This document shows positions 1-64,000 of a stretch of 64,000 bases of DNA, piece after piece. The DNA comes from Candidatus Omnitrophota bacterium (GTDB taxonomy: Bacteria; Omnitrophota; Gorgyraeia; Aquiviventales; Aquiviventaceae): NCBI GenBank assembly GCA_016193175.1, contig JACPSR010000052.1:11226-75225 (forward strand), given 5' to 3'. A program made the translations under genes and the position numbers. A model generated the notes under the pieces. It was not told where the DNA came from. It did no database searches and saw nothing but the letters and a program-made list of their open reading frames with translations. Position 1 is the first letter of the stretch. Each line of letters opens with the position of its first letter.

Positions 1-250
1 TGCACCACGTCCTGGACAAGCGTTGGGAAGTTCTGGGGGTGCACACCCGGTATGGCCTCATCCACCTGGCGCTCAACCTCGACCGTCACCGCGACATCGC
101 TCCCTGGAATGTTCGGCCGTGCGACCTCCAGATCTAACAAGGTGAGTCTCGGGGCCCCACTCTTCTCAGCCTGCTCCCTGGCCCAGTCGAGTTGCACCTG
201 CAGCGCGTTGAGGTCCACCAACGCCAGCGGTGTTGCGGCAGGCTCGCGTG
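1..250 (-). repeat. Internal coding repeat (pairs with 3990..4240, ~92% identical; spacing ~3990 bp), encoding PLALxDLxALQVQLDWAREQAEKSGAPRxTLLDLEVARPNIPGSDV...VDEAIPGVHPQNF.TLVQDVV.
   Basis: + strand 1-250 against 3990-4240, aligned by eye. The shadow ORFs 52..579 and 4039..4452 start with near-identical peptides. Confidence 0.9.
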
Positions 251-38798: not shown

Positions 38799-38802
38799 CC
38801 TC

Positions 38803-40395: not shown

Positions 40396-40447
40396 GGCTT
40401 GCTGCCTGCTACGGTTACCGCGCCACGACCATCCTAATATTAAACAC

Positions 40448-40476
40448 ATAATAATAGATTTCAAAAACATTGTCAA
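40448..40476 (-). promoter_or_regulatory. Sigma70-like promoter TTGACA-N17-TATTAT, in the only AT-rich island of the window. It would drive the 530-aa gene and the downstream megaprotein gene.
   Basis: Minus strand reads ...aattgcTTGACAatgtttttgaaatctatTATTATgtgtttaatattaggatgg. The -35 sits at 40476..40471 and the -10 at 40453..40448 with a 17-nt spacer. It lies between the stop of the 5401-aa gene (40504) and the ATG at 40395, in an otherwise >60% GC window. Confidence 0.5.
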
Positions 40477-40486
40477 GCAATTTTTT

Positions 40487-40502
40487 ATTAGTGGCTTAGT
40501 GG
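40487..40502 (-). repeat. Tandem direct 8-mer GCCACTAA x2 immediately 3' of the 5401-aa gene stop.
   Basis: + strand ttagtggc ttagtggc at 40487-40502. The TAA stop at 40504-40506 is the start of the first copy on the minus strand. No clear hairpin terminator accompanies it. Confidence 0.6.
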
Positions 40503-40503
40503 C

Positions 40504-46500: not shown

Positions 46501-49500
46501 CACCGCCTCGGCTTGCTGGCGAAGCTCGGCATCAAGCTCAGAGCGCTTCAGAATTTCAGGCAACGCCTCTGCAAGCTCTCTTGCGAGCCCATCAGCCCCA
46601 AGCGCAGAGGTCCGTTGCTCCATGACGAGTTGAGCGTGAACTCGCCGATCCTCCTCAGCCTGCTCGCGCGTACGCGCCAGTTTCGCTTCGAGCGATGGCC
46701 TGACGGCGTCAAGCTGCGCTCGCTGCTCGGCCGAGAGATCCAGCGCATCGAGCCATCCGATCAATTCAACAGCAGCCGTCAGCTCAGCCTCATCGCTGGA
46801 CGAGCGCTTGATGAGGCTCACGGCCAGCCCCTCGCCTCCCTCAACGAGGTAGTTGACGATGCGCGGCGTGAGGGTCTGGAGTCCTCTCGTCATCTGGAGA
46901 AGCTCTGCCAGCGTCGGGGGTGCGGGCTCTTGAGCGATCGCGCCATACCCGTGGAGCGTCTCGATGAGCGCTTGATGCAACGTCTGTGCGGCCTCGTTCC
47001 ATTCCGCCTTTTTGAGGTGCAGGCGACCGCTCAGGAAGAGCAGATCCACGTAGGTCCATCCGACCACTGGCCTGATCGATTGAGCCAAGCTGAGCGCCTC
47101 GCCGATCTCTCGCCTGGCGCCGTCGAGATCGCCGAGGCGGAGCAACGCCTCTGCCAGGTATCGTTTGATCGCGACGGTCCCCGCAGGGGTGAACCACCCC
47201 TTCGTTTGGTCCTGCGCCAAATCGCTGACTCCTAGCTCAAGCTGCCCGCTCTGTCCGCTGAACAATCGGATCGAGCCGCGAGTCACGAGCGCACGCGCCT
47301 GGGCCTGTTCCAGCTCCCTGCGCCTGCGCGTCAACTCGGCTTCATGTGGCGCGTTGGCTGCTGATCCCGCCTCCCGCGCCAGCCGTTTCAATCCCTCGTT
47401 GGCTGCCCTCAACTCGGCCTCGATCTTCCGCACCACGTCTTCCATCTTGTTCGTCGCCGGCTCATACCGCTTCAGTCCCCAGAGGGCGAGCGCTTCGGAT
47501 CGGAGGACCGCCCGGTCCATCCCCTCTTTCCGTTGTCGATCCTCCACCCCATACACGCTGCGGGCACGACGCCCCAACTCCAACACCTTCTCATAGGCCT
47601 GGGGCTCCTCAGTGTCCAACGCATGCTGGAGCTGCGCGGCGGCCATCTGGGTCAAGAGGTATTTCTCCTGGACTGGCGGATCATTCAGGAACGCGGTGTA
47701 CGCCGCCCAGTCGAGCGGCTCGGTCCTGATCGACTGGAGCAGCGTCAACGCCTCCGTCAGCGCCTCCAGGCTCTCCAGCGCTCGCGGACGGTCAAGCTCC
47801 AGGAGGCTGACGCCGAGCACCCGTGAGATATCCATGAGCAAACGGCGGTCGCCTGGCCGCATCCGCTTCGCCGTATCCCGCGCGGTGGTCAGCCACTGGA
47901 CCGCCTCGTCATAACGACCGCGCAGATACGCCACGCGGCCCGCTGCGAAGCGGCTCACGATGTCCTCCGCATTGACGTCAAGGGCCCGCGCATATTCCTG
48001 TCGCGCAGCCTCGATCTGCCCCGCCTGTTCCAGATGGAAGGCGCGCAGAGAGGCCTCGGCAGCGAGCAGCCGATTCGAGGCCGTTTCTGGATTGATGCGG
48101 CTGCGGATCGCTTCAAAGAGCTGCTGGATCGTCGAGGACGATGGCCCTGCGACTTCTTTGAGGCGCATGACCGCTTCCAACACGAGAAACGCCAACAGCT
48201 GGCGCTCCGGCTCCGGCTGCTTGGCATACACACGGCCCAACGCGCGCAGGGCCTCTCCCAGCGGAGGATGATAGGCGATCAGGAGTTGCCGTCCTCGCAC
48301 AACGCTCACGCCTCGTTTCTCGAGCTCTCGGACGCGCGCCTTCCCCGCCTGCTTGAGGGCCGCCACCAAGATCGGCACATCCGATTCGGTGTCCCGAAGG
48401 GGCAGCGTCGGACCCAAGAAGCTGCACCCATGGGCCAGCACCCGACGAAATCGCGTGATGGCCTCCTCGACATTGTTCGCTTGCTCCGCGACCCGCCCCT
48501 TCACGACGTCCAGCGCGTCATCGATTGTCGGATGCGGATCGGCCCCATGCGCCCGCTCATAGAGCCGGCGAGCCCCTTGGAGGTCGCCTTCGGCATAGGC
48601 CAGGTGGCCCTGGAGCATGAGCGCGTAGGCCAGCACCGAGGGCTGCCGCTCAGCGAGGATGGCGGAGTAGCGTCTCAGCTCCTGGATGGACGCCCGCGCC
48701 TCGTTGTGGCGATCCAAGCTGTAATAGGTTTGGGCCTTCGTGATGCCCACGATCGCAGCGAACCGCTGGATCTCTCTCAGCTCGGCAGGGCGTTTCGTGC
48801 GTTTCGCAAGCGCCTCAAGCGCCTCGATGGTCTCGTCAAACAACCGAAGCCCCTCGTCGGGCCGCCCCAATTCCACCAGGGCATCTGCCAACTTGTAGAG
48901 CAGCTCCGCTCTGATCATCGAGGGGTCCGGCGCGAGCACGAGCGCCTCGCGCGCAGACTCTTCAACCTCTTCGTATCTGTTCAGGCGGAGTGCCTCTTCG
49001 AGACGGCCAGCCTGCTCATGCCCTTCTCCCTGCTGGAACTGCTTGTGCGCCTCGGCCTTCCGCTGCTGCTGCGCCTTCGAATCGCCTGTCGCAACGGTGG
49101 GATCGATCCCAACTTTCAGTGGAGGGGAGTCCCCTGGCCTCGTGGCGGCTTGAGGCGTTGGCTCAGCAGGCTGGGACGATCGGGGAGGCTCAGGCGGTGC
49201 CGGTGGGGGCGCCGGCGTAATCGGTGGAGGAGGGATTTTGGCCGACTCCTTCGGCGCTGCGTCCCCCTCGACAGCCTGGCCTTGCAGTTCTTGCGGAAGT
49301 CCGTTGACTTCCGCGCCCAATTGCTCGATCTCAGCCCGCAACTTGCCTGCTTCGTCTTGGTTCACCTCACCTGGCTTGAGGGCCCGCTCGGAACGATCTT
49401 TGAGCGTCTTGATCCGCTGTTGCAATTGGTCCAAGAGCTTCCAATCGTCGATGACAGCCAGCCGTCGCCGCTCACTGTCGGGGACGAGGGTGCCGCCGCT

Positions 49501-52500
49501 CGCGTAATCATATGCGTTCCACGGTGCCTCAAGCTCCAGCTCCTCATCGCCAATCACGTTGCGATGCCCGCCCCTTCGATGCGCGCGATCCGATCGCTCC
49601 GTTCGGTTCACCCTCGCCCCGCCATTTCCCATGTTGCCCGGCGCGGCAGGGCCAAGGCGTCGCTGGGTCTCGTAGCGCTCAACAAGGAATTCGATGTCGG
49701 ATTCGTTAAAGGCCGGATCAGCGCGCGTTAGCGACTGCTTCAATGGGTTGCGGAGATCTTCCGCTGTAACCTTATGATCAACAACCTTGACGATCAGGTC
49801 GAACAGTTGCTGGGCTTCCTCGTAATCGCCCCGCATCTGGGCCAGCTGAACCAAGCGCCTCACCGCCTTCACGGTGAACGAGGGATCAGCAAAGTCAGGG
49901 AATTCCTTGGCCTCCGTAAACAGTTGAAAATACTTCTGCAAGACCATGTGCCGATGCTCGCTCGCATTGGCGCTCACGGCTGCTTGCAGCGCGGCGAGGG
50001 CCTTAGGGGTCGCGAAGTACCACTTATCAGGATGGTAGGGAAACTCGGGGAACAGCGGGTATAAGAGCTTCCTGACCGGCATGGGTCTGAGACACACATC
50101 CACGTGAAGGTGTACTCCGACCAGCTCGAATTTCTTCGCAATGGCCGATGTGAGGGTCTGGGATCTTTGGCGTCGATTCAGGTCTATCACGCCAAACTCG
50201 CTAAAGAAGTCATCTGACCACTCGTCAGGGAGGTAGAGGACAATGTCTAACTCAGGCTCTCCGTTCACGTGTCCAATACCTGGCCAGTAGATCTTCCCCT
50301 CGCGATCACGCAGGTAGGCGACGCTCCCCCCAATTTCGATGATGATGCGGTCAGGCTGAAAATCCTCGGGTGTTTTGACAAGCTGTCGCTTAATCGCTGG
50401 CCAGACTTCCCTGATGGCCTCGTCAATCAGATCGACAACGTTCACTCGTGTGTGGCGGATTGCTGAGTCAAGAGACGCGGGTGGGAGGTCGAGCAAGTGT
50501 TTATCTTTTGGCTGGTACGGCTGCTCCGCGTTGGCTTGGTCGAGGATCGCCGTGACTTGAGCGGTTTGCTTCACCGCAGGCGACTCCTCAGACGGCACCT
50601 TGGCGGCGTCGGGGTTGGGCGGCTCGTTGACGCTGATCCCATCAAGCCCCTCTGTGGCGATCTCGCGAGGAGTCGGCTCAAGGTTTCTGGACGGGGATAT
50701 CGCCGCCGATCCCTGAGCTTCCTCCTTAAGGACCTGCTGGAACTGGGCGAGCAGGGGGTCGTGAACGAGCGGATCAAGTCGCTTCACCCACGCCCTGGTC
50801 AGTGTGAGCCCGCCCTCCCATGCCATCGGCTCTGGAAGGTCCTCCTGGTGATAGCCTAACCCTGGCATGTCCTGATCATAGACGATATCCGCCAATGCCC
50901 TCGCGATGCCTGGCGATTCCACGTCTGATTGAACGTCTGGGGGCCACCGCTGTTGAATCTGCTCACTGGTGGGGCTGACGATTTGTTCAACCCCCACCCC
51001 CCGCGCATACGCTTCAAGACCCAACCGCATCTCCTTCTGCCAGTCCCTGTAGCGCGATTTGGTCGTTCCCTCCTGACGCAAGGCTCTGTAGACATCGCTT
51101 TGGATCGCGCCGATGACGAGGGTCTTGCCGCGGAGATAGAAGTGGACATACGCCAGGGCCCCAGGCACGTGTCCCCCCGGCAATGAGAGCGGCTGGGCTT
51201 CCAGCACGCGAAGCTCCTGATCATCTGGGAAGAGGGCGAGCACGCGGGCCTCAAGAGGCACTCCGTCCACGCGGGCGGTCGCGAGATACGGAACGGTCCG
51301 CAGGCGGCCTCCAAAGAGTCTGACGGTTACTCCGTTGGCTTTCAGGGTCGCTCCACCAGGTGGGGGTCGAATGGAGGCCTGAAACGTCGGGACACCAAAC
51401 AGCACATCGCCAATGACCAGTCGTTGCGCATAGGGGATCGATCCGAGATGTTGACCCAACTCGGCCATGATCCCGTATCGTTTCACCTCAGGAAGCTGCG
51501 CCAGGGCCCACGCAAGATGCCGTGGGCCGATCGCTCCCTCGCGCAGGCTTGACGAGAGCGCCTGGGCGGCGTGGGCATATTGTTCTGACTCTTCTTCGCT
51601 CAGGAACTGAGGCGCGCGCGGCACCTTCAAGGATCCTAAGATCGGCGTGACAGACTCGATCTTCGCTGCGTCGCCAAGCCGGTCGTGTGGGGGAGACGCT
51701 CGCTGGCTCACCTCGCCCGGCGCGGGCGGCTGGGCATCGGTGTCGGCGGCTGGATTTGATGCGGGCGGCGCGGCGGCGGGGGGCGTCTTTCCGTTCTCAA
51801 TCGCGGGGTGTGGCGCGGCTCCCGGCGTCCGAGTCGCGATGAGGATGCCGGAGGTCGACCGACCGATGGCGTACTCGTACGGCTGCACGTGGAACCCTCG
51901 GTCCTCGAGCATGCCTCGAATGCGGTGAAACGCGCGGACATGCCGATGGTTGACCTGCCCAAATTGTGAAAGGAAATACCCTGAGTTAATGAGCAGTTGA
52001 ATCTTCGGTCGCCGGCTTAGGAAGTCAACCGCCATCTCATTAGCACGGCGATAGTTGTTCCAAGGCCCAATGCTCACAAGGGCGCTGGTCGCCTGTTCGA
52101 GAGGCGAGGAAGGCTCCGCGAGTGCAGCGAGATCAATCGGGTCGGTCAAATCGGCGTGCCGGATCGTGAACTGGCCGCCCTGCCCCGCACCCTCACGCCA
52201 CCCGTCGGCCAGCAGCAGCGCTCGGGCCAACTCCAGGACAGGCCGCTTCTTGTCAATCAGCACCGCGTGGCGAGCGCCAAGCCGCAAGCCACCCCGAGAG
52301 TGGATCCCCGATTCCGCCCCCGCATCGACGACCGTCGCGCCTGGGAAGTAGTCCGCATACCCGAGCATGGAGGCGAATGTTCCTACGGTGTAGTCATTGA
52401 AGGGATGGTCCGTCGCGTATGAGGGCGCGACGAAGAGGAAATTGCCTGCGGTGCTGGGGTAACGATCCTTCAGGTGCGCTGCGAGGCGCGCCCGGAACTG

Positions 52501-55500
52501 CTCAATGGTCTGTCCAATTCGCCGCTGGAGCGTGGGAGGATCATGGTGAAAGCGCTTTTCATCTCCTTTTGCGCTCCGGAAGATGAGGAAGATGAACGGC
52601 CCGATCCGGTACAAAGCCGGTAGACCTGGTCCGTAGGCGCGCTCGAACCCGACGCGGTGACCGTTGATCTCAAACTCGTAATCCGTCGTTAAGGCCCCGA
52701 CGGGTGCAAAGGCATGGATCGACGATTCAGCCAAGTCCACGGCGTCATCCTCGCTGAGCCATTGCATGGCCCTCTGACCGGCCTCACCGTCATGGCGCTC
52801 CTCCGGGGCCGGGGGAACGCCGGGTGGCTGATGCACCATCGTGAACGCGGCGGTGAGGGCGGCGCCGACGGCGAGGCTGAGTCGCGCGAAGCCAGCGCGG
52901 CTGAGGAGGGGTGCAGCCTCGGCGCCGGCGAGATACGCGACCGCGGCGAGGAGGCCGGCGACGAGCCATGCCGCGCTGAGGAGGAGCAGGAGCTTGGGGA
53001 GCTTCTCCCTGAACCGGACCAGGGTTGCCTCGATCCCTGCAAAATAGCTGGGCAGGGCTTTCCCTAATTGGCTTCGATACACTTCCGCCTCTCGGCGGAT
53101 CTGCTCCGCAAGCGCGGGCTGGGTGGGTTCCGCTTGTTGGGCGAGCTGCTCGAATTGTTCCAGGGTGATGAGGATGGGGTCGCGCGTAAGTGTTCGTGGC
53201 GCTTGCCCCGCCGTCAGTTCTTGGGGAGAAGCGGGCGGCGCGCGGCCGGCCGCCCGGCGCGCGAACCAGGCGCTGAGTTGTTGAGCTCCGCGCGCTACTC
53301 GCCGGAGGACCCACAGGCCGGCAGCAACCCCGCCGAGCGCCAGGGCGTATGGCAGCAGATGAAGGGCCCGGGTCAGGGAGAACACCATGACAGGACCAAT
53401 GATTGCCGTCTCGGGCGGGAGGGTCTCCACAACCCACGTGGCCAGCGTCAGCCCGAGGGTCATCGCGAGCCCGAGCGTGCCAACCCGCAGCCAGCGCCGG
53501 CCTCTCGCGCCAGGCCCCGCGCTCGTTCCGAGGAGCGCCAGGGCCACGAGGGCGGCAAGTCCGCTCAGAACGGGGAGGGCGGCGCCAAGGCTGGCCCAAT
53601 CAACCGACGGGCCTCGAGCGAGGTCCACCACCCCCTCCGCGGAGGTGCCGGCCAGGAGCGCGCCGAGGCCCACGATCCAGGCCGCCAGCCGGCCGGAACC
53701 AGAACCCCGTACCCTTCTTCTCACGACGGTTTCAACCCGCTTCCCCTGAGCCTGAGACGCTGACTCCAGGAGGGTTTCCGCTTGCTTGACGTGCTCCACG
53801 ATGTCCTTCAGGATCTGCGTGGCCTGACGATAGTCGGTTTCCTGTTTCGGCCACTGCTCCACGCGGTGATCGATGCGATTCTGCACCGTCTCTACGTCAT
53901 GCCTGATGGCCTGAAGGGTAGCCACGAGACGTTTCTGCAAATCCTTCAGCGGCCTCTGCTCGCCCAAGGAGCGACGGATACGCTCCAGCAGACGCGCAGT
54001 CGTCTGCGTGGCCTTGCCTAACCGCTCTTCCAGGATCCGCGGCGATCCGATTTCATTCTTCGCAACCTTGAGGGGGTAGGTGCGCACGTCCTGCCAGTCT
54101 TGGAGCAACTGTCGCCAGGCGATGACAGTGTCTTCGTCAAAAACCCTCATGGATGCGGCGAAAAACACAGTCGTCTCGAGGGGACTCCATGTCGGCGTTA
54201 ACCCGGCCCACAGCGCGGCAAGCTGGGCCGCTGCCGCCAGCGCCAGGACGAGCCAGGCGATCGTGATGAGCGGGATCACGCCGTCCTCACGGGGCGAGGC
54301 ATCCTCGGCTGGCTCCTCACGTACCGGCCTGGCGAGATCGATGAGGTCGGCGTAGATCCCCTCCAGGTAGCTTCGGAATCCTTGGAGTCTCTTGGTCGCA
54401 TCTTCGGGTGTGACGAGTGACGGGTCCGCTCGCGGGTCAAGGATCAAGGCCCGAGTCACCCCCTCAAACTCGCGCGCCAGCTCGTCAAGGTGAGGGCTGG
54501 GGGCGCCGGCCTTCGACCACAAGGACAGAAAACCTTCCCTAATCTGCCGAATCAACGTGTGCGCTTCGCCGAACTCCCGACGCTGACGCTCCGTCTGCTC
54601 CACAAGCGTCTGCAGCACCAGACGGCTTCGTTGTAGCCTAAGGAGGAGGATGAATCGCCTCAGATTCGGACGGCTGAAGAGATCGGTGGTACTCGTCAGC
54701 GCCTCCTCGGTCAGCGTCCACGCTTGCTCGACATGAGCGAGCCGATCCCGCTGGTCCATCTCCTGAAGATTGCCATCCAGAAGGCGCACGGCCTCATCGA
54801 CATCCACGGCGGCCGTCTCAACGATCAGATGCACCGGATACATCCCTGACGCGCGGTTGCCATCCTGTGGCCCGGGCGGCTCGGTGGGCGTGAGATCCTT
54901 CGCCCTCAACGCGGCTCGGATCGCCCTGATCATCGCCCATGGCCGATCACTAAAGCCAAGTCGAACAAGCTCAGCCTCATCTGAGGGTATTTCGCGGATT
55001 GAGAGCAGCGGGGGGGTCTTGGCCAAAAAGGTCTCTTTGATCCACTGATCAGTCTCGGGTCTCTTTGAAAAGCGCACATTCACGATGAAGTCCGGATCTT
55101 CTTGGAACCGGATCCTGCGAGCGGCCAAGGCGCGTGTCAAGTCCTTGAACTGCGCCAAGTGCGACCAGACCGAGCGATCAGGGGACTCGGCTTGGATCAG
55201 CCGGAAGACCTCGAAATCGGTCTTGGAGAGCAACTCGAAGATCGTGTGACCTAGCAGGATGATCTCCTGATCGGTGAGGATCGGGCGCTGGCCGCCATGT
55301 GCAGAAAAGAGTGCGTTCTTAACGAAGCCATCGCGACGCCATCCTGGAAATGTCCGGTTCTCAAGAAAGTTCGGATTCTCCCGAAGCCTGATGCCGTACG
55401 TGGCCAGGGTGTGCTTCAGGTCGTAGAACCGCTTGCGATACCACCAGCCTGGAGCGACTGGGAAGTGCTCGATGAGCAGGCGGAATACCTCCAAGTCAGT

Positions 55501-56709
55501 GATGGCTTCGAGAGCTGCAACTGTGCGGACCCCTGCAGCTTCCAAGATCTCTAAGATCTCCCGCACGTCTTTCCGTTGAATCATCAGGTCGCGAAGGAGA
55601 AGGCTCGGAGCGATGAGGCGCTCCGTCTCAAGCCTCGGTAACACTTTGGCGAGTGCCTGTTGCTCAATTTGCCGGACCCGCTCGCGAGTCAGCCTGAGAC
55701 GAGCGCCGATCTGTTCAAGCGTCTGCGAGCTCAGGCGCGATTCCAAAATCGTCCGTTCACGCTCGGAGAGATCCATAAAGATTGTGGGACCAGTGCGCGC
55801 AAACTCCCGTTGAACCTGTTGCAGCAGTGGTGAAAGCCAGGCCCTTCTCGCTCGCCGCAGAACCGTGGCAAGGCCAGCGACACCGAGCGCCCCCACGAGC
55901 GGTCCAAGCCATCCCCCAAGCGCCGCGAGTTCTGCAGCCAAACCGCCACTAGGGATCTCCACCGCCGACCAGCCGAGGGCCGGGACGCCGGCCAGGGCGA
56001 GCCCGAGGAAGAGGCCGAGCTTCTGACCGCGGCGCAGGGAACGATCCGTTCTATCGGGAGTCGACGGAGCCGGTTTCGGAATCCATCCCTCGATGATCAA
56101 CAGGCCCGCGGCGAGGATCGCAGCGACCCCGCTGACGACGAGATAGGACGTCAACGGAGACGAAACCGCCTTCGTGGTCCGGAAGAGCGAGAGGAACGGC
56201 GCGAGCACGACGGCATTGAAGAGGAACAGGAAGAACACCCCGGCAGTGAATTGCGAGATGTCCACCCTCCAACCCCGCGACCTCGCCCACCAGAGGCCGA
56301 GGGACGCCAAGGCCCAGATCCCGACAATCCCAGCCGCTGTCATCCACAACGCCGCAGACAGGGCATCTGTAAGCCCCAGGAAGGGGATGAGCGCGGGGAG
56401 AACGGCAGAGCCATTCGTTTCGGTTCGCCGACGCGCATCCGTGGCGCGCTCCTGCTTGGGCCTGCGTGCCCAGACGACCATGTCATCGGATCCGTGCACG
56501 AGCTCGAAGGCCTCCGTCCATCCCTCCTGCTGACGCAGCGCCTCGCTGTCCTTCCGCCCGGCGAAGAGCACCCCTCCTACTACTCCGCCATGTTCGGACA
56601 TCAGGGCGGCGCTGAGCGTTTTCAACTGCTCCTCAGTCAGTGGCGCGGTGACCCCTTCGATCAGGATCAGGTCGGCTGACCGAAGACCTCCCAGGGTGGC
56701 ATCGCTCAT
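40504..56709 (-). CDS. Giant multi-pass membrane protein of ~5401 aa. It carries a sigma70 region-4 HTH, two alpha-CTD-like HhH repeats, a class-I SAM-MTase-like segment, an NTase-fold core, a TPR array and a PEP-synthase/RPH-like ATP-grasp plus phosphohistidine swivel module.
   Basis: Track ORF 40504..56826 (5440 aa). The likely true start is Met40 (ATG 56709..56707), whose ATG overlaps the TGA of the upstream gene (ATGA at 56706-56709). The first 39 track codons overlap the upstream gene in another frame. Domain motifs are read directly from the track translation. Confidence 0.85.
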   Translation of the reverse strand: MSDATLGGLRSADLILIEGVTAPLTEEQLKTLSAALMSEHGGVVGGVLFAGRKDSEALRQQEGWTEAFELVHGSDDMVVWARRPKQERATDARRRTETNGSAVLPALIPFLGLTDALSAALWMTAAGIVGIWALASLGLWWARSRGWRVDISQFTAGVFFLFLFNAVVLAPFLSLFRTTKAVSSPLTSYLVVSGVAAILAAGLLIIEGWIPKPAPSTPDRTDRSLRRGQKLGLFLGLALAGVPALGWSAVEIPSGGLAAELAALGGWLGPLVGALGVAGLATVLRRARRAWLSPLLQQVQREFARTGPTIFMDLSERERTILESRLSSQTLEQIGARLRLTRERVRQIEQQALAKVLPRLETERLIAPSLLLRDLMIQRKDVREILEILEAAGVRTVAALEAITDLEVFRLLIEHFPVAPGWWYRKRFYDLKHTLATYGIRLRENPNFLENRTFPGWRRDGFVKNALFSAHGGQRPILTDQEIILLGHTIFELLSKTDFEVFRLIQAESPDRSVWSHLAQFKDLTRALAARRIRFQEDPDFIVNVRFSKRPETDQWIKETFLAKTPPLLSIREIPSDEAELVRLGFSDRPWAMIRAIRAALRAKDLTPTEPPGPQDGNRASGMYPVHLIVETAAVDVDEAVRLLDGNLQEMDQRDRLAHVEQAWTLTEEALTSTTDLFSRPNLRRFILLLRLQRSRLVLQTLVEQTERQRREFGEAHTLIRQIREGFLSLWSKAGAPSPHLDELAREFEGVTRALILDPRADPSLVTPEDATKRLQGFRSYLEGIYADLIDLARPVREEPAEDASPREDGVIPLITIAWLVLALAAAAQLAALWAGLTPTWSPLETTVFFAASMRVFDEDTVIAWRQLLQDWQDVRTYPLKVAKNEIGSPRILEERLGKATQTTARLLERIRRSLGEQRPLKDLQKRLVATLQAIRHDVETVQNRIDHRVEQWPKQETDYRQATQILKDIVEHVKQAETLLESASQAQGKRVETVVRRRVRGSGSGRLAAWIVGLGALLAGTSAEGVVDLARGPSVDWASLGAALPVLSGLAALVALALLGTSAGPGARGRRWLRVGTLGLAMTLGLTLATWVVETLPPETAIIGPVMVFSLTRALHLLPYALALGGVAAGLWVLRRVARGAQQLSAWFARRAAGRAPPASPQELTAGQAPRTLTRDPILITLEQFEQLAQQAEPTQPALAEQIRREAEVYRSQLGKALPSYFAGIEATLVRFREKLPKLLLLLSAAWLVAGLLAAVAYLAGAEAAPLLSRAGFARLSLAVGAALTAAFTMVHQPPGVPPAPEERHDGEAGQRAMQWLSEDDAVDLAESSIHAFAPVGALTTDYEFEINGHRVGFERAYGPGLPALYRIGPFIFLIFRSAKGDEKRFHHDPPTLQRRIGQTIEQFRARLAAHLKDRYPSTAGNFLFVAPSYATDHPFNDYTVGTFASMLGYADYFPGATVVDAGAESGIHSRGGLRLGARHAVLIDKKRPVLELARALLLADGWREGAGQGGQFTIRHADLTDPIDLAALAEPSSPLEQATSALVSIGPWNNYRRANEMAVDFLSRRPKIQLLINSGYFLSQFGQVNHRHVRAFHRIRGMLEDRGFHVQPYEYAIGRSTSGILIATRTPGAAPHPAIENGKTPPAAAPPASNPAADTDAQPPAPGEVSQRASPPHDRLGDAAKIESVTPILGSLKVPRAPQFLSEEESEQYAHAAQALSSSLREGAIGPRHLAWALAQLPEVKRYGIMAELGQHLGSIPYAQRLVIGDVLFGVPTFQASIRPPPGGATLKANGVTVRLFGGRLRTVPYLATARVDGVPLEARVLALFPDDQELRVLEAQPLSLPGGHVPGALAYVHFYLRGKTLVIGAIQSDVYRALRQEGTTKSRYRDWQKEMRLGLEAYARGVGVEQIVSPTSEQIQQRWPPDVQSDVESPGIARALADIVYDQDMPGLGYHQEDLPEPMAWEGGLTLTRAWVKRLDPLVHDPLLAQFQQVLKEEAQGSAAISPSRNLEPTPREIATEGLDGISVNEPPNPDAAKVPSEESPAVKQTAQVTAILDQANAEQPYQPKDKHLLDLPPASLDSAIRHTRVNVVDLIDEAIREVWPAIKRQLVKTPEDFQPDRIIIEIGGSVAYLRDREGKIYWPGIGHVNGEPELDIVLYLPDEWSDDFFSEFGVIDLNRRQRSQTLTSAIAKKFELVGVHLHVDVCLRPMPVRKLLYPLFPEFPYHPDKWYFATPKALAALQAAVSANASEHRHMVLQKYFQLFTEAKEFPDFADPSFTVKAVRRLVQLAQMRGDYEEAQQLFDLIVKVVDHKVTAEDLRNPLKQSLTRADPAFNESDIEFLVERYETQRRLGPAAPGNMGNGGARVNRTERSDRAHRRGGHRNVIGDEELELEAPWNAYDYASGGTLVPDSERRRLAVIDDWKLLDQLQQRIKTLKDRSERALKPGEVNQDEAGKLRAEIEQLGAEVNGLPQELQGQAVEGDAAPKESAKIPPPPITPAPPPAPPEPPRSSQPAEPTPQAATRPGDSPPLKVGIDPTVATGDSKAQQQRKAEAHKQFQQGEGHEQAGRLEEALRLNRYEEVEESAREALVLAPDPSMIRAELLYKLADALVELGRPDEGLRLFDETIEALEALAKRTKRPAELREIQRFAAIVGITKAQTYYSLDRHNEARASIQELRRYSAILAERQPSVLAYALMLQGHLAYAEGDLQGARRLYERAHGADPHPTIDDALDVVKGRVAEQANNVEEAITRFRRVLAHGCSFLGPTLPLRDTESDVPILVAALKQAGKARVRELEKRGVSVVRGRQLLIAYHPPLGEALRALGRVYAKQPEPERQLLAFLVLEAVMRLKEVAGPSSSTIQQLFEAIRSRINPETASNRLLAAEASLRAFHLEQAGQIEAARQEYARALDVNAEDIVSRFAAGRVAYLRGRYDEAVQWLTTARDTAKRMRPGDRRLLMDISRVLGVSLLELDRPRALESLEALTEALTLLQSIRTEPLDWAAYTAFLNDPPVQEKYLLTQMAAAQLQHALDTEEPQAYEKVLELGRRARSVYGVEDRQRKEGMDRAVLRSEALALWGLKRYEPATNKMEDVVRKIEAELRAANEGLKRLAREAGSAANAPHEAELTRRRRELEQAQARALVTRGSIRLFSGQSGQLELGVSDLAQDQTKGWFTPAGTVAIKRYLAEALLRLGDLDGARREIGEALSLAQSIRPVVGWTYVDLLFLSGRLHLKKAEWNEAAQTLHQALIETLHGYGAIAQEPAPPTLAELLQMTRGLQTLTPRIVNYLVEGGEGLAVSLIKRSSSDEAELTAAVELIGWLDALDLSAEQRAQLDAVRPSLEAKLARTREQAEEDRRVHAQLVMEQRTSALGADGLARELAEALPEILKRSELDAELRQQAEAVVHQAEETGRVTPPEGWATGRAWALALVLQAETPAPKLLVERLAKAAAESHAKLSLQTIESMTRKAEAAELKGNRLEALATMISDGAVRTHLDEAVKTKSRIDEAMNAAIDELIRSLQAAQPQAAPPKEPRGRGRRTGRRGPPEEKEHYLPPELRQSPLERMFGHQDRRFHSQGPGRVETGSSKPLQPPTVMLDDAATLSVDEIGEKAKALAELRQLGIPTPDALVLTVQAAAHVRSYQQQLQEGLRQLEQRTGTKLGDAEAPLLLAVRSSADQAYPGLLTSVLFVGMTRDVLEGLKRSRGEPVAFRTYAAWLRSWAVGVLKMPAQSFDRALNKPSSPEEVANAFERIIAESGFRIPEDPHDQLVAAIEAVVQSGRADAVKNFRVIHGQTGPAPVAVILSPMLNTLDEDSGVGMFSTHDSQTGEPGLFGSFRVTASGDELVQGRSLVPVQELRSRFPAVFEQLSALRERIVQARHHVPQDIEFAFAHGRVLITQAQPQVLMPAALLPLIERQAREAGASTIDLIPTVLERLQYSSPPRKTMVGRFRDMDTAKRRVIVGDPSRLSGTDMVVGHLVFTRERALAAIRSGEPIIFVAQEGQQDLLKELLSANRLSGVILSEGVAPGTHTRQLLQYFDVPVVAFNQSYPTEIDEGALVRHVWEWGRGARVERRVPEGSLVAMDGAEKVVVAFIPEEWHALREMPAAPGFDLQALKDSVTQAYGGTDYQTVLQAHDRSLSAALTADRTWRWLRTHRPQAVEEIVTAGRNTIAHGLSAHFLYELLLEKGSQLGKSARQVGLEIVEQAKDLQRLPELRSTPYRLLTRDFRPSLNPAWGKFVIQFWGKEWDFDSRSYRSYLTPAELETHQLPPLGQAYQRFLEPIRQEAEQAKRQVQRFVEYLRASGAEVPSLRLFAEWFDHTHEDAPNTFGAYAVGVEFLPDRLQEVVQRLLDFERAKPWQGDPRTPSGDGERDHGERDRHGDRFRGAWENLPWADHHHRSAGRRGGGGGWAVGTPAPEPSKPAPAQQIELVSDPLRKVIPAGIKHLIRGTTSGRRQMTPERFLVSAEKALQRFADLPAKTKTNEVAAGLRNRLRYAARRFRTAAPYGRVQSALKQTNASVLLDDVSGNEEKATQTATSLGWLLEIFRARKAVRLRAQLHPVEGQLEALMAPYFPGVIARPATFRSAESYQETIDSLVEKFTLGGSTVQAAPILGGFLVWLLAPDLTGALAFLVGLGTTIMIAVVGGNGGTSDSPEDTHDKLPRIKFTAGSMGGGPEPITSVLVVGALAERAVERLRVDGKVDIHVSELRDGHAMAHVENLNSEDPTGSVEIDQQPVLQLHRLPDALAGLKPNVEGVSVLIKRDVHRSSSFLLNSTQPRAKKQSAVKALPLALAVAVGMILLAAVPVEAAVRHAALSLAPDWVTLSLLMVAVGLAWPWWLRRHRWGRSSSLRDGETPQLVAPVDQVNLEDWDRALDQFDDPQGSFAVVERQAFLAAARMMLQEAARRTTASSAKELQDMVLAWHDKLALMTQQRARGVYWGDIEVFFERLSRAWQRQGPSIQLAARAYRGLVKGQWLVDHNHRIAFLLMAYLLLRAGLVPPTPTPRVLYALSRLGGQPSRRVARWLRSEQPSIGERWVQDVHARLIQGRIEESRELLLELIQDLGSRSDKRGSLLVDGVSRLLQTYPELHRWIRSTLIEFLRDQKGGYRIRGWIEILLRELLAKELDARIQFVVGALADRPPETKAALAQELKAWVTDKRTFRRFLADLLSGRQFFRGRFRDMRYSSLPQQERWRALDLNLIQLLIRRGDLKPSPWLKAGGALAWAFVFLWGSQGAYGQSNLMGFDRYFQEGARLMKRTALASRDLVRGVRMLYRSEGWRVEIHGESHTFGELKGSVYAGAAWQLGHWTGDPENAVKFLALLGNGYDIERAIRKIWKDTPPTIPPSGGSFPGAPRGTLPTAKFHGPGNALMDRPQAEPSWPRPPAGRTIEDVEPGIKSNHVAERFN
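42230..42850 (-). other. C-terminal TM helix clusters of the 5401-aa protein.
   Basis: AAPILGGFLVWLLAPDLTGALAFLVGLGTTIMIAVVGGNGG (~42700-42850) and ALPLALAVAVGMILLAAVPVEAAVRHAALSLAPDWVTLSLLMVAVGLAWPWWL (~42230-42400). Confidence 0.65.
44400..44950 (-). other. PEP-utilizing-enzyme mobile (phosphohistidine swivel) domain.
   Basis: DMVVGHLVFTRERALAAIRSGEPIIFVAQEGQQDLLKELLSANRLSGVILSEGVAPGTHTRQLLQYFDVPVVAF (verified 44581-44640) parallels G.VV...........ILV...T.P.......A.GIVT..GG.TSHAAIVARE.GIP.VVG. The catalytic-His position is retained (GTHTRQ). No PEP/pyruvate TIM-barrel domain follows. Confidence 0.65.
45000..45970 (-). other. PPDK_N-type ATP-grasp domain (PEP synthase / pyruvate-phosphate dikinase / rifampin-phosphotransferase N-terminal nucleotide-binding domain).
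   Basis: KPLQPPTVMLDDAATLSVDEIGEKAKALAELRQLGIPTPDALVLTVQA (~45900-45960), LLLAVRSSADQAYPGLLTSVLFVG (compare VAVRSSATAED...SFAGQ), GVGMFSTHDSQTGEPGLFGSF, PQDIEFAFAHGRVLITQAQP (verified 45010-45070; compare PQDIEWAI..G.LYILQSRP). Confidence 0.7.
46700..49150 (-). other. Long TPR-like repeat array (about 800 aa) preceded by a Pro-rich linker.
   Basis: Linker IPPPPITPAPPPAPPEPPRSSQPAEPTPQ (~49150-49300), then repeated patterns such as LAYALMLQGHLAYAEGDLQGARRLYERA, FAAGRVAYLRGRYDEAVQWLTTA and IKRYLAEALLRLGDLDGARREIGEALSLA. Confidence 0.6.
49900..50500 (-). other. Nucleotidyltransferase-fold (Pol-beta-like NTase) core.
   Basis: Verified at 50225-50340: IEIGGSVAYLRDREGKIYWPGIGHVNGEPELDIVLYLPDE, which fits hG[GS]x9-13[DE]h[DE]h. 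A third acidic residue may lie in VHLHVDV downstream. Confidence 0.5.
51900..52480 (-). other. Class-I SAM-dependent methyltransferase-like segment (PrmA/HemK-like motif I), tentative.
   Basis: YADYFPGATVVDAGAESGIHSRGGLRLGARHAVLIDKKRPVLELARALLLADGW...FTIRHADLTD parallels G..VLDVGCGSGILAIAA.KLGA..V.GVDID..AV..A..NA..NG. Motif I was verified at 52291-52330. Confidence 0.4.
55050..55620 (-). other. Two ~90-aa repeats resembling the RNA-polymerase alpha-CTD helix-hairpin-helix fold (tentative).
   Basis: ILEILEAAGVRTVAALEAITDLEVFRLLIEHFPVAPGWWYRKRFYDLKHTLATYGIRLRENPNF and LGHTIFELLSKTDFEVFRLIQAESPDRSVWSHLAQFKDLTRALAARRIRFQEDPDF. Compare alpha-CTD LKRAGIHTVGDLV..TE.ELL...NLGKKSL.EIK..L...GL. Confidence 0.3.
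55620..55775 (-). other. Sigma-70 region 4-type HTH domain.
   Basis: Verified by reverse complement of 55681-55780: FMDLSERERTILESRLSSQTLEQIGARLRLTRERVRQIEQQALAKVLPRL, matching the region-4 signature L.ERE..IL..R.....TLEEIG..LG.SRERVRQIE..AL.KLR. Confidence 0.7.
55790..56380 (-). other. N-terminal TM helix cluster (about 6 helices) of the 5401-aa protein.
   Basis: Track translation: AVLPALIPFLGLTDALSAALWMTAAGIVGIWALASLGLWW...FTAGVFFLFLFNAVVLAPFLSLF...LVVSGVAAILAAGLLIIEGW...LGLFLGLALAGVPALGW...LGPLVGALGVAGLATVL. Confidence 0.7.
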
Positions 56710-63998: not shown

Positions 63999-64000
63999 TT

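What the first reader, a model, noticed from the sequence alone, without database searches (positions are those of the whole stretch)
49900..56380. The 5401-aa protein couples a multi-pass membrane anchor to nucleic-acid/RNAP-type modules (sigma70-r4 HTH, alpha-CTD-like HhH), an MTase-like segment and an NTase-fold core
The combination is: TM helices, then a sigma70-r4 HTH (LSERERTILESRL...TLEQIGARLRLTRERVRQIEQQAL), then a tentative class-I MTase-like motif I, then the NTase pattern IGGSVAYL...GEPELDIVLYL, then a TPR array. This is reminiscent of signalling/defence architectures, where NTase-fold enzymes such as cGAS/DncV-like CD-NTases or minimal NTases act, and TPR platforms are common. It is here embedded in a giant membrane protein. 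A second sigma70-r4-like HTH occurs in the upstream helicase protein, suggesting a shared DNA- or RNAP-contacting function.
Basis: partly seen in the sequence, partly recalled or inferred. Interest (0 to 1): 0.6.

Follow-up and report, generated by a model that had tools for sequence, protein, structure and literature searches.

The report
Mosaic membrane-anchored giant protein of Omnitrophota
The region is the front 40% of a 5401-residue, membrane-anchored patchwork protein from an uncultured Omnitrophota bacterium, a phylum already known for such giants; its sigma-factor-type DNA-binding module and methyltransferase fold are real, but the proposed nucleotidyltransferase core is unproven and the alpha-CTD resemblance is not supported.

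Summary
The ORF is real. It runs from 56709 to 40504 on the minus strand, encodes 5401 aa, and is identical to NCBI MBI3020874.1, a "hypothetical protein" of a Candidatus Omnitrophica MAG.

Confirmed:
- Four clusters of transmembrane helices.
- A Sigma70_r4 HTH in this protein (Pfam E 1e-9) and another in the upstream helicase protein (E 4e-8).
- A PrmA/PRMT-like class-I methyltransferase fold. This copy has Glu at the near-invariant middle Gly of GxGxG.
- A TPR array, which lies downstream of the stated coordinates.

Not supported: the alpha-CTD-like HhH. That stretch is a tandem ~93-aa helical repeat.

Unresolved: the NTase core. GS and E-x-D are among the few invariant residues in six remote homologues. 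However, the Pfam, PADLOC, PDB-profile and hhalign tests were all negative. Foldseek gave only sub-threshold NTase hits, and on a poor model.

Context changes the interpretation. The whole window is minus-strand coding for four tandem ORFs. One exceeds 12,900 aa and strings glycolytic enzymes together. This matches the published Omnitrophota "very long, TM-studded, multi-enzyme" proteins, not a defence or signalling system. I rate it a new member of a known kind, of modest interest.

The parts
40504..56709 (-). ORF2: the 5401-aa protein of the finding (MBI3020874.1). The ATG start at 56709 overlaps the stop of ORF1 as ATGA.
55858..56412 (-). TM block 1: six hydrophobic helices (aa 100-284). 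K/R-rich loops alternate in a pattern that fits N-in/C-in.
   Evidence: The topology is inferred from the positive-inside rule.
55642..55773 (-). Sigma-70 region 4 HTH (aa 313-356), about 30 residues after the last TM helix. No region 2 is present.
   Evidence: Pfam PF04545 38.3 bits, E 9.7e-10; NCBIfam sigma models; PDB sigma r4 chains
55348..55527 (-). Copy 1 of a tandem helical repeat, spaced about 93 aa from copy 2 (aa 395-454).
   Evidence: Smith-Waterman score 97 between the copies; no alpha-CTD match
55069..55248 (-). Copy 2 of the tandem helical repeat (aa 488-547).
54178..54282 (-). TM block 2: a 35-aa hydrophobic stretch (aa 810-844), either one long helix or a hairpin.
53305..53688 (-). 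TM block 3: four or five helices (aa 1008-1135).
52831..52992 (-). TM block 4: two helices (aa 1240-1293).
51748..52776 (-). Module A: PrmA/PRMT-like class-I SAM-methyltransferase fold (aa ~1312-1654). Motif I is degenerate: D1462-A-G-A-E1466-S-G at window 52306-52326. The family motif NIGPW reads SIGPW here.
50650..51564 (-). Module B: a conserved uncharacterised domain (aa ~1716-2020) with the motifs E-[IV]-Q-S-D and Y-R-D-W. No Pfam or PDB relative was found.
49657..50559 (-). Module C: a conserved domain (aa ~2051-2351) and candidate Pol-beta-type NTase. G2128, S2129, Y2132, L2133, W2142, D2155 and P2161 are invariant. Position 2153 is always E or D. D2204 is a possible third carboxylate.
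   Evidence: The fold is not established.
46957..48951 (-). TPR array (aa ~2587-3251), downstream of the finding's end coordinate.
   Evidence: Pfam TPR_2 1.4e-16, TPR_19, TPR_12 and others
44683..45942 (-). PPDK-type ATP-grasp/nucleotide-binding module (aa ~3590-4009).
   Evidence: Pfam PPDK_N 9.5e-10; NCBIfam PPDK models 9e-39 and 1e-37
56706..64000 (-). ORF1: more than 2430 aa, running off the window. It contains an SF1 helicase C-terminus, TM helices, a Sigma70_r4 HTH, a ~330-aa tandem duplication and HExxH motifs.
61266..61418 (-). The second Sigma-70 region 4 HTH, in ORF1.
   Evidence: Pfam PF04545 33.1 bits, E 3.9e-8
3..38798 (-). ORF4: more than 12,900 aa, running off the window. It carries DnaJ, PGK, cupin-type GPI, TIM, GlpX FBPase, GAPDH, Glu/Leu dehydrogenase and PGM/PMM modules.

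Best explanation
The finding is the N-terminal ~40% of a 5401-aa inner-membrane-anchored mosaic protein of an Omnitrophota MAG. It is a smaller member of that phylum's published class of very long, TM-studded, multi-enzyme proteins.

It is the second of four tandem, same-strand ORFs that fill the whole 64-kb window. Their lengths are >2430, 5401, 557 and >12,900 aa. ORF1/ORF2 and ORF3/ORF4 each look translationally coupled.

Shown:
- The polypeptide is a string of independently recognisable modules separated by clusters of TM helices and low-complexity linkers.
- The module order is: 6-TM bundle, sigma-70 region 4 HTH, tandem helical repeats, three more TM clusters, a PrmA/PRMT-like MTase fold, conserved unknown module B, conserved module C (GGS...ELD), TPR array, PPDK-type ATP-grasp module, then more TM helices.
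- Modules A, B and C each recur separately in other long metagenomic proteins of 2,000-7,000 aa, and C also in stand-alone proteins. They never recur together, so this architecture arose by domain shuffling.

Inferred:
- K/R-rich loops alternate with short acidic or neutral loops. On that pattern the TM helices form hairpins, and all large soluble modules hang on the cytoplasmic face. That is where SAM, NTPs, ATP, DNA and RNAP are available.
- The region 4 HTH lacks region 2, so it cannot be a sigma factor. It most likely acts as a plain DNA-binding (-35-type) or RNAP beta-flap-binding handle held at the membrane.
- The MTase copy, with Glu in the glycine loop, is probably impaired in SAM binding and may serve as a binding module.
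- Module C may be a divergent nucleotidyltransferase; I put this at roughly even odds.
- Overall I read ORF2 as a membrane-tethered scaffold of regulatory and protein-modifying modules (methyl, possibly nucleotidyl, and phosphoryl transfer, plus TPR docking). It would work alongside the glycolytic-enzyme giant encoded downstream.
For: Identity and taxon:
- The protein is an exact match to MBI3020874.1 from a Candidatus Omnitrophica bacterium, on an 87-kb contig.
- Fragments that are 99.4-100% identical occur in a second MAG.

Modules:
- Sigma70_r4.
- MTase family.
- Modules B and C are conserved domains.
- TPR and PPDK-type module.
- TM clusters and charge pattern.

Locus:
- The entire window is one coding strand, including a >12,969-codon open frame.
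- That frame carries PGK (1e-100), GPI, TIM, GlpX, GAPDH, GluDH, PGM/PMM and DnaJ.
- An ATGA overlap joins ORF1/ORF2, and TAA-GAGG-ATG joins ORF3/ORF4.

Shuffling:
- Hits to A, B and C never fall in the same hit protein.
- Other carriers are long proteins with HD, CheR, several MTase or radical-SAM domains. One carrier is named Omnitrophica and another Planctomycetota.

Literature:
- Omnitrophota long proteins are TM-rich and tile many enzyme Pfams.
- MTase, PPDK_N, TPR and PGM/PMM are among the recurrent domains.
- Most are read as inner-membrane-anchored with cytoplasmic bulk (bioRxiv 10.1101/2023.11.21.568195; bioRxiv 10.64898/2026.06.07.730766).
Against: - Topology rests only on hydropathy and the positive-inside rule. 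West-Roberts et al. report that TM predictions for such proteins disagree between tools, and they place most domains outside the cell.
- If the hydrophobic stretch at aa 810-844 is a single helix, the following ~160 aa would be periplasmic.
- No function has been tested for any module.
- At 5401 aa this protein is below the >=10,000-aa threshold used in the 2026 preprint.
- Neither paper mentions sigma domains.
- The 'regulatory hub for the downstream metabolic giant' reading is inference from adjacency alone.
Confidence: 0.62

Rival explanations
1. One reading: an NTase-centred signalling or defence machine. An active Pol-beta/CD-NTase-type enzyme in module C would make a nucleotide signal or modify a target, with TPRs as a sensing platform and the HTH as a nucleic-acid sensor.
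For: - GS and [DE]x[DE] are invariant or conserved in all 7 aligned sequences.
- The secondary-structure order of the model is helix, strand-GGS, strand with ELD, helix, strand with D.
- The top PDB Foldseek hit is ANT(9), and BFVD ranks 2-3 are Pol-beta NTase-domain proteins. All are sub-threshold (E 0.12-0.23).
- A permissive hhalign puts helix 1, GS, DxD and the third strand in register with AadA.
Against: - There is no Pfam, PADLOC, NCBIfam or PDB-profile hit to any NTase or CD-NTase.
- The hhalign probability is 0.2-0.3%, and the score (13.7) is no better than the unrelated controls (12.1 and 11.7).
- The structural model has pLDDT 47.
- The motif alone is at chance level.
- The third carboxylate is present in only about 4 of 6 homologues.
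- Stand-alone homologues have no effector, HEPN or defence neighbours.
- The context is a metabolic giant-gene locus.
Confidence: 0.07
2. Polyprotein precursor: ORF2 and its neighbours are cleaved after membrane insertion into separate membrane-anchored enzymes, so the 'coupling' of modules is only transient.
For: - The modules are separated by TM clusters and Pro/Ala-rich linkers.
- ORF1 carries two HExxH motifs at or in TM helices, which is reminiscent of site-2 proteases.
- West-Roberts et al. raise self-cleavage by C39/S8 peptidase domains in giant proteins.
Against: - No peptidase Pfam domain was detected in ORF1 or ORF2.
- No cleavage sites are known.
- Modules A and B occur embedded in many other long proteins rather than as free genes.
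Confidence: 0.15
3. Membrane-tethered transcription control is the primary function. The region 4 HTHs of ORF1 and ORF2 bind -35-like DNA, or the RNAP beta flap as a sigma-4 mimic or anti-sigma-like decoy. That would hold or regulate transcription of the giant-gene locus at the membrane.
For: - Two bona fide Sigma70_r4 modules lie in adjacent, translationally coupled membrane proteins.
- An 11/12 consensus TTGACA-N17-TATTAT promoter sits in the only non-coding gap, directly downstream of ORF2.
- The HTH of ORF2 sits about 30 residues from the predicted cytoplasmic end of a TM helix.
Against: - Region 4-type HTHs are generic DNA-binding modules.
- It accounts for about 50 of 5401 residues.
- None of the 109 proteins sharing modules A, B or C has a detectable region 4.
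- Nothing ties the HTH to that promoter.
Confidence: 0.1
4. Artefact: a spurious long ORF in GC-rich DNA, or a chimeric assembly.
For: - Stop codons are rarer at 63% GC.
- Many shadow ORFs exist on the opposite strand. Ten were tested and all lack Pfam hits.
Against: - At this composition about 2.8% of random codons are stops, so 5400 open codons are not expected by chance (my own estimate).
- There are multiple significant domain hits in one frame.
- Fragments that are 99-100% identical occur in a second MAG and in a Logan assembly.
Confidence: 0.02

Closest known systems
Omnitrophota very long / giant TM-studded multi-enzyme proteins ('Archaeovorin'-type and 'multi-enzyme metabolic cluster' classes; West-Roberts et al. 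2023 bioRxiv 10.1101/2023.11.21.568195; Nielsen & Lui 2026 bioRxiv 10.64898/2026.06.07.730766)
   Same: - Same phylum.
- Many TM helices without a signal peptide.
- Unrelated enzyme and scaffold Pfams tiled along one polypeptide. MTase, PPDK_N and TPR are here; PGM/PMM and glycolytic enzymes are in the adjacent ORF.
- The domains are highly divergent.
- Long genes are clustered.
   Different: - At 5401 aa it is below the 10,000-30,000-aa thresholds of those studies.
- No SecA_DEAD, dockerin or C39 domain was detected.
- It carries a Sigma70_r4 HTH, as does its neighbour. Neither paper mentions this domain ('sigma' occurs 0 times).
- The helicase in the neighbour is SF1 (AAA_12), not SecA-like.
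PrmA (ribosomal protein L11 methyltransferase, PF06325) and protein arginine methyltransferases (PRMT1, CARM1)
   Same: - Class-I Rossmann-type SAM-MTase fold.
- The family consensus V-x-D-x-G-x-G-x-G-x-L-S-x-x-A-x-x-L-G-A-x-x-V-x-x-x-[DE] aligns to PRMT1 motif I and post-I.
- 16 of 22 family members hit PrmA.
   Different: - The window copy has Glu at the middle Gly of GxGxG and no Pfam hit of its own.
- The family has its own conserved N-terminal extension (R-x-G-P-L-I-F; G-N-I-x-F) and the motifs N-I-G-P-W...Y-G-x-A-N and I-N-G-G-Y.
- The PRMT double-E and THW loops were not identified.
- It is embedded in long membrane proteins.
Pol-beta-type nucleotidyltransferases with a C-terminal helical domain (ANT(9)/ANT(3'') aminoglycoside NTases, KNTase, MNT)
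   Same: - The order is: N-terminal helix, strand ending in G-[GS], strand with [DE]-h-[DE]-h, and a later strand with an acidic residue, followed by a helical domain.
- Overall size is about 300 aa.
- The best (sub-threshold) Foldseek matches are of this kind.
   Different: - No significant sequence, profile or structural match.
- The GS-to-DxD spacing is longer (19-25 residues) with a conserved Y-L-R...W-P insert.
- The third carboxylate is not universal.
- The invariant Y, L, W and P are not NTase hallmarks.
Sigma-70 family factors (region 4.2, -35 recognition / beta-flap binding)
   Same: The HTH matches PF04545 above the gathering threshold and aligns to solved sigma-A/RpoD/RpoS region 4.
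   Different: - No region 2 or 3.
- It is fused directly behind a 6-TM bundle in a 5401-aa protein, so it is not a sigma factor.

Membership tests
Sigma70_r4 domain (PF04545) | Match to the Pfam model above the gathering score. | tested here: met
   38.3 bits against 24.1, E 9.7e-10 at aa 313-356. ORF1 copy: 33.1 bits, E 3.9e-8.
Sigma-70 family sigma factor | Presence of region 2 (core binding and -10 recognition) together with region 4. | tested here: not met
   No Sigma70_r2 or r3 hit at E<=0.1 in either protein. All NCBIfam sigma models match only their C-terminal ~50 positions, far below their cut-offs. The HTH starts about 30 aa after a TM helix.
RNA polymerase alpha subunit C-terminal domain (PF03118, HhH) | Sequence or profile match to the alpha-CTD. 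| tested here: not met
   No Pfam hit at E<=0.1. No alpha-subunit chain at E<=10 in the PDB.
Class-I SAM-dependent methyltransferase (PrmA/PRMT-like) | Rossmann-type MTase fold or family-level profile match. | tested here: met
   Homologues at E down to 2e-41. 16 of 22 family members hit PF06325 PrmA, best 3.1e-8. The family profile hits PRMT1 at 1.3e-9. Foldseek on the window copy's model returns almost only class-I MTases, best E 2.1e-4.
Class-I SAM-dependent methyltransferase (PrmA/PRMT-like) | Intact motif I glycine loop (G-x-G-x-G) for SAM binding. | tested here: not met
   The window copy reads D-A-G-A-E-S-G. 20 of 21 other members have Gly at that position. The window copy alone gets no MTase Pfam hit.
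Class-I SAM-dependent methyltransferase (PrmA/PRMT-like) | Acidic residue at the end of strand 2, which binds the SAM ribose. | tested here: met
   In 'HAVLIDKK' the Asp aligns with the family's D/E column and with PRMT1 'VIGVDMS'.
Pol-beta-type nucleotidyltransferase fold | An hG[GS] motif, and [DE]h[DE]h on the next strand, conserved across homologues. | tested here: met
   G2128, S2129 and D2155 are invariant. Position 2153 is E or D in all 7 sequences.
Pol-beta-type nucleotidyltransferase fold | Third catalytic carboxylate on strand 3. | tested here: inconclusive
   D2204 aligns with Asp in about 4 of 6 homologues, and the alignment there is gappy.
Pol-beta-type nucleotidyltransferase fold | Significant profile or structural match to a known NTase. 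| tested here: not met
   Pfam, PADLOC and PDB profile searches were negative. hhalign against an AadA family alignment gave probability 0.2-0.3%, equal to negative controls. Foldseek hits to NTases have E 0.12-0.23 and TM 0.15-0.24, on a pLDDT-47 model.
CD-NTase / CBASS or MNT-HEPN defence systems | A CD-NTase or MNT profile match plus an effector or HEPN partner nearby. | tested here: not met
   PADLOC gave no hit in ORF2 apart from the region 4 piece of MzaA (E 0.004). Neighbours of homologues are housekeeping or mobile-element genes.
Omnitrophota very long TM-anchored multi-enzyme proteins | Omnitrophota origin, multiple TM helices without a signal peptide, several unrelated enzyme or scaffold Pfams on one chain, and a giant-gene neighbourhood. 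| tested here: met
   NCBI source name. TM clusters. Sigma70_r4, MTase fold, TPR and PPDK_N on one chain. A neighbouring >12,900-aa ORF with 8 or more enzyme families. Published descriptions.
Omnitrophota very long TM-anchored multi-enzyme proteins | Length >=10,000 aa, the operational threshold of the 2026 catalogue. | tested here: not met
   ORF2 is 5401 aa. Only the adjacent ORF4 (>12,900 aa) passes.

The most novel reading that the evidence does not exclude
Module C would be a previously undescribed Pol-beta-type nucleotidyltransferase family. Together with the PrmA/PRMT-like, PPDK-type phosphotransfer and degenerate Fic-like modules, it would make ORF2 a membrane-tethered protein-modification hub that regulates the glycolytic-enzyme 'metabolon' giant encoded downstream. 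The Sigma70_r4 modules of ORF1 and ORF2 would dock the assembly to RNAP or to -35-like DNA, such as the near-consensus promoter between ORF2 and ORF3. That would couple transcription of giant genes to the membrane.
Probability: 0.1. Interest if true: 0.65.

Novelty: new member of a known kind. Interest (0 to 1): 0.35.

Why it matters
Omnitrophota giant proteins are a recognised but functionally opaque phenomenon. This locus adds three concrete handles.

1. Bona fide sigma-70 region 4 HTH modules sit in two adjacent membrane-anchored long proteins. Neither paper read here on these proteins mentions this domain.
2. Three domain families (a PrmA/PRMT-like MTase subfamily, module B and module C) are shuffled among long proteins from metagenomes. 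Two of them have no Pfam or PDB relative. They are tractable targets of about 300 aa, and module C also exists as a 393-aa stand-alone gene.
3. The operon layout is compact: a 'regulatory' giant lies next to a giant that strings glycolytic enzymes together.

None of this overturns current views. It is a typical, if well-resolved, example.

Tried and rejected
- Word-indexed homologue search with aa 1301-2281 found only the protein itself. The same search with the module C alignment found nothing.
The results were pLDDT 47 and 41, so no MSA-based model of module C could be made. That was a planning error on my part.
- The genome-contig scan with module C found no relative.
The identity came from the cluster look-up instead.
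- hhalign of module C against a 90-sequence AadA alignment gave no signal. That alignment is narrow (Neff ~2.2), so the test was weak.
- I first took the plus-strand ORFs at 1-38,000 for genes, possibly phage-like. Ten of them have no Pfam hit, and they are shadows of a >12,969-codon minus-strand frame that the ORF listing omits because it runs off the window.
- There is no rRNA, tRNA or Rfam family in the window.
- phmmer with the two region 4 segments found no region 4 in the 109 proteins that share modules A, B or C.
- Pfam scans of ten shorter carriers of modules B or C found no accompanying domain.
Full report
NUMBERING. Residues are numbered on the 5401-aa protein. M1 is the ATG at window 56709, and residue n starts at 56709-3(n-1) on the minus strand. 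The ORF listing reports the ORF from an upstream in-frame GTG (56826; 5440 aa). My raw tool outputs therefore use numbers that are 39 higher.

1. WHAT IS AT THE COORDINATES.
- One open reading frame runs 56826->40504 on the minus strand.
- Its likely start is the ATG at 56709, which overlaps the TGA of the upstream ORF as ATGA.
- The resulting 5401-aa product is identical to NCBI MBI3020874.1, [quoted passage not shown], on an 87,084-bp MAG contig.
- Fragments that are 99.4-100% identical occur in a second MAG and in a Logan assembly.
- At 63% G+C roughly 2.8% of random codons are stops (my estimate). A 5400-codon open frame is therefore not a chance event.
- The finding (49900-56380) covers residues ~110-2270.

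2. CHECK OF EACH OBSERVED ELEMENT.

(a) TM helices: confirmed by hydropathy.
- Six helices at aa 100-284.
- A 35-residue hydrophobic stretch at 810-844.
- Four or five helices at 1008-1135.
- Two helices at 1240-1293.
- Two more pairs lie near the C-terminus (4605-4642 and 4783-4835).

(b) Sigma-70 region 4: confirmed.
- Pfam PF04545 scores 38.3 bits against a gathering score of 24.1 (E 9.7e-10) at aa 313-356.
- It aligns to solved SigA/RpoD/RpoS region 4 chains and to the C-terminal ~50 positions of many NCBIfam sigma models.
- No region 2 or 3 is detectable, and the HTH begins about 30 residues after TM6. It is therefore an isolated region 4 HTH, not a sigma factor.
- The upstream protein has its own copy (33.1 bits, E 3.9e-8).
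- The two HTHs align to each other with only a modest score.

(c) Alpha-CTD-like HhH: not supported.
- There is no RNA_pol_A_CTD hit at E<=0.1.
- No alpha-subunit chain appears among PDB matches up to E = 10.
- What is there is a tandem duplication of a helical unit, aa 395-454 against 488-547, with an ungapped Smith-Waterman score of 97.

(d) MTase-like segment: supported at the family level, with a caveat for this copy.
- The exhaustive HMMER search of 1.84 billion representatives with aa 1301-2281 returned 109 proteins. They fall into three non-overlapping domains.
- Module A (aa ~1312-1654) has about 70 relatives, with E down to 2e-41.
- In a 22-sequence alignment, 16 members hit Pfam PrmA (best 3.1e-8), and others hit MTS, Methyltransf_25/31 and Cons_hypoth95.
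- The family profile matches PRMT1, CARM1 and PrmA structures (best 1.3e-9). Motif I, post-I and the following helix are in register.
- As an independent check, the single-sequence AlphaFold model of the window copy is poor (pLDDT 41). It still retrieves almost exclusively class-I MTase-fold chains in Foldseek/PDB (best E 2.1e-4, probability 1.0).
- The window copy reads D-A-G-A-E-S-G where 20 of 21 relatives have G-x-G-x-G. It is also divergent in the following helix (GIHSRGGL against G-[IL]-L-S-x-[VI]-A-L). The family motif N-I-G-P-W reads S-I-G-P-W. It gets no MTase Pfam hit on its own.
- From general knowledge of class-I MTases, a bulky acidic residue in the glycine loop should hinder SAM binding. 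This copy may therefore be a pseudo-enzyme. That is inference.

(e) NTase pattern: the string exists but its meaning is unresolved.
- As a regular expression (h-G-[GS]-x8-30-[DE]-h-[DE]-h) it occurs once in the protein, against 0.48 expected in shuffles. The single-sequence observation is at chance level.
- Module C (aa ~2051-2351) is nevertheless a real conserved domain, with six relatives at E 1e-36 to 5e-4.
- The 7-sequence alignment has only seven invariant columns: G2128, S2129, Y2132, L2133, W2142, D2155 and P2161. The first carboxylate position (2153) is E or D in all seven.
This is unlikely if conservation were spread at random, of order 1e-4 by my rough estimate. It indicates a functional site.
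- The model's secondary-structure order fits the Pol-beta-type core: helix, strand-GGS, strand-ELD, helix, strand with D2204, then a helical domain.

Evidence against the NTase reading:
- No hit appeared in Pfam, PADLOC or NCBIfam.
- PDB sequences searched with the full or core profile gave nothing.
- hhalign against an ANT(3'')/AadA family alignment gave probability 0.2-0.3%. With permissive settings the alignment is in register (helix 1, GS, DxD, third strand). But its score (13.7) is no better than those of modules B and A used as negative controls (12.1 and 11.7).
- Foldseek on the pLDDT-47 model gives ANT(9) as the top PDB hit (E 0.22, TM 0.15). In BFVD, two "polymerase beta nucleotidyltransferase domain" proteins sit at ranks 2-3 (E 0.12 and 0.23).
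- The recurrence of the same fold class at the top of two libraries is suggestive. The MTase control shows that poor models can still carry signal. Even so, none of these hits is significant.
- I put the NTase fold at roughly even odds.

(f) TPR array: real (TPR_2 E 1.4e-16 and many others), at aa ~2587-3251. It lies downstream of the finding's end coordinate.

3. WHAT ELSE IS IN THE PROTEIN.
- Module B (aa ~1716-2020) lies between A and C. It is a conserved domain with about 40 relatives and the motifs E-[IV]-Q-S-D and Y-R-D-W. It has no Pfam or PDB relative.
- Downstream of the TPRs is a PPDK-type ATP-grasp/nucleotide-binding module (Pfam PPDK_N 9.5e-10; NCBIfam PPDK models 9e-39 and 1e-37).
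- That module is followed by a stretch resembling the swivel phospho-histidine domain (…GVAPGTHTRQLLQYFDVPVV…; seen by eye, no profile hit).
- Near the C-terminus there is a weak, degenerate Fic-like motif (E 0.003, below threshold).

4. SURROUNDINGS.
- The window is coding on the minus strand from end to end.
- ORF1 (64000->56706, more than 2430 aa) runs off the window. It begins inside an SF1/Upf1-type helicase C-terminal domain (AAA_12 9e-16). Its best PADLOC match is the helicase part of Mokosh MkoA, which I take to reflect generic helicase homology.
- ORF1 also has TM helices, the second region 4 HTH, a 39%-identical ~330-aa tandem duplication, and two HExxH motifs next to or within TM helices.
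- After ORF2 comes the only non-coding gap (40396-40503). It is AT-rich and carries a TTGACA-N17-TATTAT promoter-like site that matches 11 of 12 positions.
- Then comes ORF3 (up to 557 aa, no domain hit).
- ORF4 follows four bases after the ORF3 stop (TAA-GAGG-ATG). It is an open frame of more than 12,900 codons that leaves the window. It contains DnaJ, phosphoglycerate kinase (1.3e-100), cupin-type glucose-6-phosphate isomerase, triosephosphate isomerase, GlpX fructose-1,6-bisphosphatase, GAPDH, Glu/Leu dehydrogenase and phosphoglucomutase/phosphomannomutase domains.
- The plus-strand ORFs listed for 1-38,000 are shadow ORFs. Ten were tested and none has a Pfam hit.
- There are no RNA genes in the window.

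5. RELATIVES AND MODULARITY.
- Hits to A, B and C never coincide in one hit protein.
- Many carriers are themselves 2,000-7,100 aa long.
- One module A carrier is a 5410-aa "HAD hydrolase-like protein" of Candidatus Omnitrophica. One module C carrier is a 632-aa Planctomycetota protein.
- A 4252-aa module B carrier has HD, several MTase domains, and a CheR-type MTase immediately before module B. A 4537-aa module A carrier has a radical-SAM domain.
- Module C also exists as an apparently complete 393-aa gene among leuA, aspartate kinase and cstA. It occurs too in a 1302-aa protein next to a 1328-aa aminotransferase fusion. No defence-type neighbours were seen.
- The A-B-C combination is therefore one product of domain shuffling among long proteins, not a conserved system.

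6. HOW IT MOST LIKELY WORKS.

Shown: a chain of autonomous modules separated by TM clusters.

Inferred from the charge pattern:
- K/R-rich segments precede TM1 and follow TM2, TM4 and TM6.
- K/R-rich segments also precede aa 1008 and follow the helices ending near 1068, 1135 and 1293.
- The alternate loops are short and acidic or neutral.
- By the positive-inside rule the helices form hairpins, and every large soluble module faces the cytoplasm. This fits modules that need DNA or RNAP, SAM, NTPs and ATP.
- West-Roberts et al. predicted mostly extracellular domains and warn that TM predictions for these proteins are unreliable.

My reading of ORF2: it is a membrane-tethered scaffold of regulatory and protein-modifying modules. 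These are a protein-MTase fold that may be catalytically dead, a possible NTase, a PPDK-type phosphotransfer module and TPR docking surfaces. A region 4 HTH can hold DNA or the RNAP beta flap close to the membrane. The whole would function next to the glycolytic-enzyme giant. This functional reading is inference from domain content and adjacency.

7. COMPARISON WITH WHAT IS KNOWN.
- The closest known kind is the Omnitrophota very long/giant proteins. These are TM-rich polypeptides tiling many divergent enzyme domains. PPDK_N, TPR, methyltransferase and PGM/PMM are among the recurrent families, and a "multi-enzyme metabolic cluster" class has been described.
- ORF4 fits that class directly. ORF2 is a shorter relative in style.
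- Differences: no SecA_DEAD, dockerin or C39 domain was detected here. The Sigma70_r4 modules are not mentioned in either paper.
- It is not a sigma factor, not an alpha-CTD protein, and not a recognisable CBASS, MNT or other defence system.

8. VERDICT.
- It is a new member of a known kind.
- The useful residue is two or three uncharacterised ~300-aa domain families with sharply conserved putative active sites, plus the region 4 HTHs in adjacent membrane giants.
- Interest 0.35.

Noticed in passing
window 3-38798, minus strand: An open frame of more than 12,900 codons runs off the window, so the ORF listing does not show it. It strings together DnaJ, PGK (1e-100), cupin GPI, TIM, GlpX FBPase, GAPDH, Glu/Leu dehydrogenase and PGM/PMM domains. 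That is most of lower glycolysis/gluconeogenesis on one polypeptide.
   Followed up: partly
window 40436-40476 (minus strand), within the AT-rich gap 40396-40503: A near-consensus sigma-70 promoter-like site, TTGACA-N17-TATTAT (11 of 12 positions), sits in the only non-coding gap of the window, between ORF2 and ORF3. Three promoter-like sites were found there against 0.5 expected in shuffles.
   Followed up: partly
window 56706-56709 and 38796-38805: The gene junctions suggest translational coupling. ORF1 stop and ORF2 start overlap as ATGA. The ORF3 stop TAA is followed by GAGG and then the ATG of ORF4.
   Followed up: yes
window 59097-61094, minus strand (ORF1): A ~330-aa tandem duplication inside the upstream protein: 133 of 337 positions identical, Smith-Waterman score 481. 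No Pfam match.
   Followed up: partly
window ~57500-58400, minus strand (C-terminal part of ORF1): Two HExxH motifs (HELGHAAIH and HESAHGFVAKR) lie next to or within hydrophobic helices. This is reminiscent of M50/site-2 proteases, but no Pfam peptidase hit was found.
   Followed up: no
window 63850-64000, minus strand: ORF1 continues beyond the window edge. It starts inside an SF1/Upf1-like helicase C-terminal domain (AAA_12, E 9e-16). Its best PADLOC match is the helicase part of Mokosh MkoA (5e-26), which probably reflects generic helicase homology.
   Followed up: partly
window 44400-45942, minus strand (ORF2 aa ~3590-4100): A PPDK-type ATP-grasp module is followed by a stretch that looks like the swivel phospho-histidine domain (…GVAPGTHTRQLLQYFDVPVV…). 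No PEP/pyruvate-binding TIM barrel was detected.
   Followed up: no
window 41746-41892, minus strand (ORF2 aa ~4940-4988): A weak Fic/DOC match (E 0.003, below gathering). The core motif is degenerate, DHNHRIAFLL in place of DGNGRxxRLL, and there is no His at the catalytic position.
   Followed up: no
P0003 (4252-aa metagenomic protein), aa 1058-1600: Module B directly follows a CheR-type methyltransferase domain here, just as it follows the PrmA-like module in the window protein. This hints at a functional link between module B and protein methyltransferases, but from only two cases.
   Followed up: no
L005 6965-8146 (P0019, 393 aa): Module C occurs as an apparently complete stand-alone gene among leuA, aspartate kinase and cstA. 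It would be a convenient target for structure determination or biochemistry.
   Followed up: partly
window 1-38000, plus strand: Dozens of plus-strand ORFs of 150-530 aa are shadow ORFs opposite the giant minus-strand frame. Ten were tested and none has a Pfam hit.
   Followed up: yes
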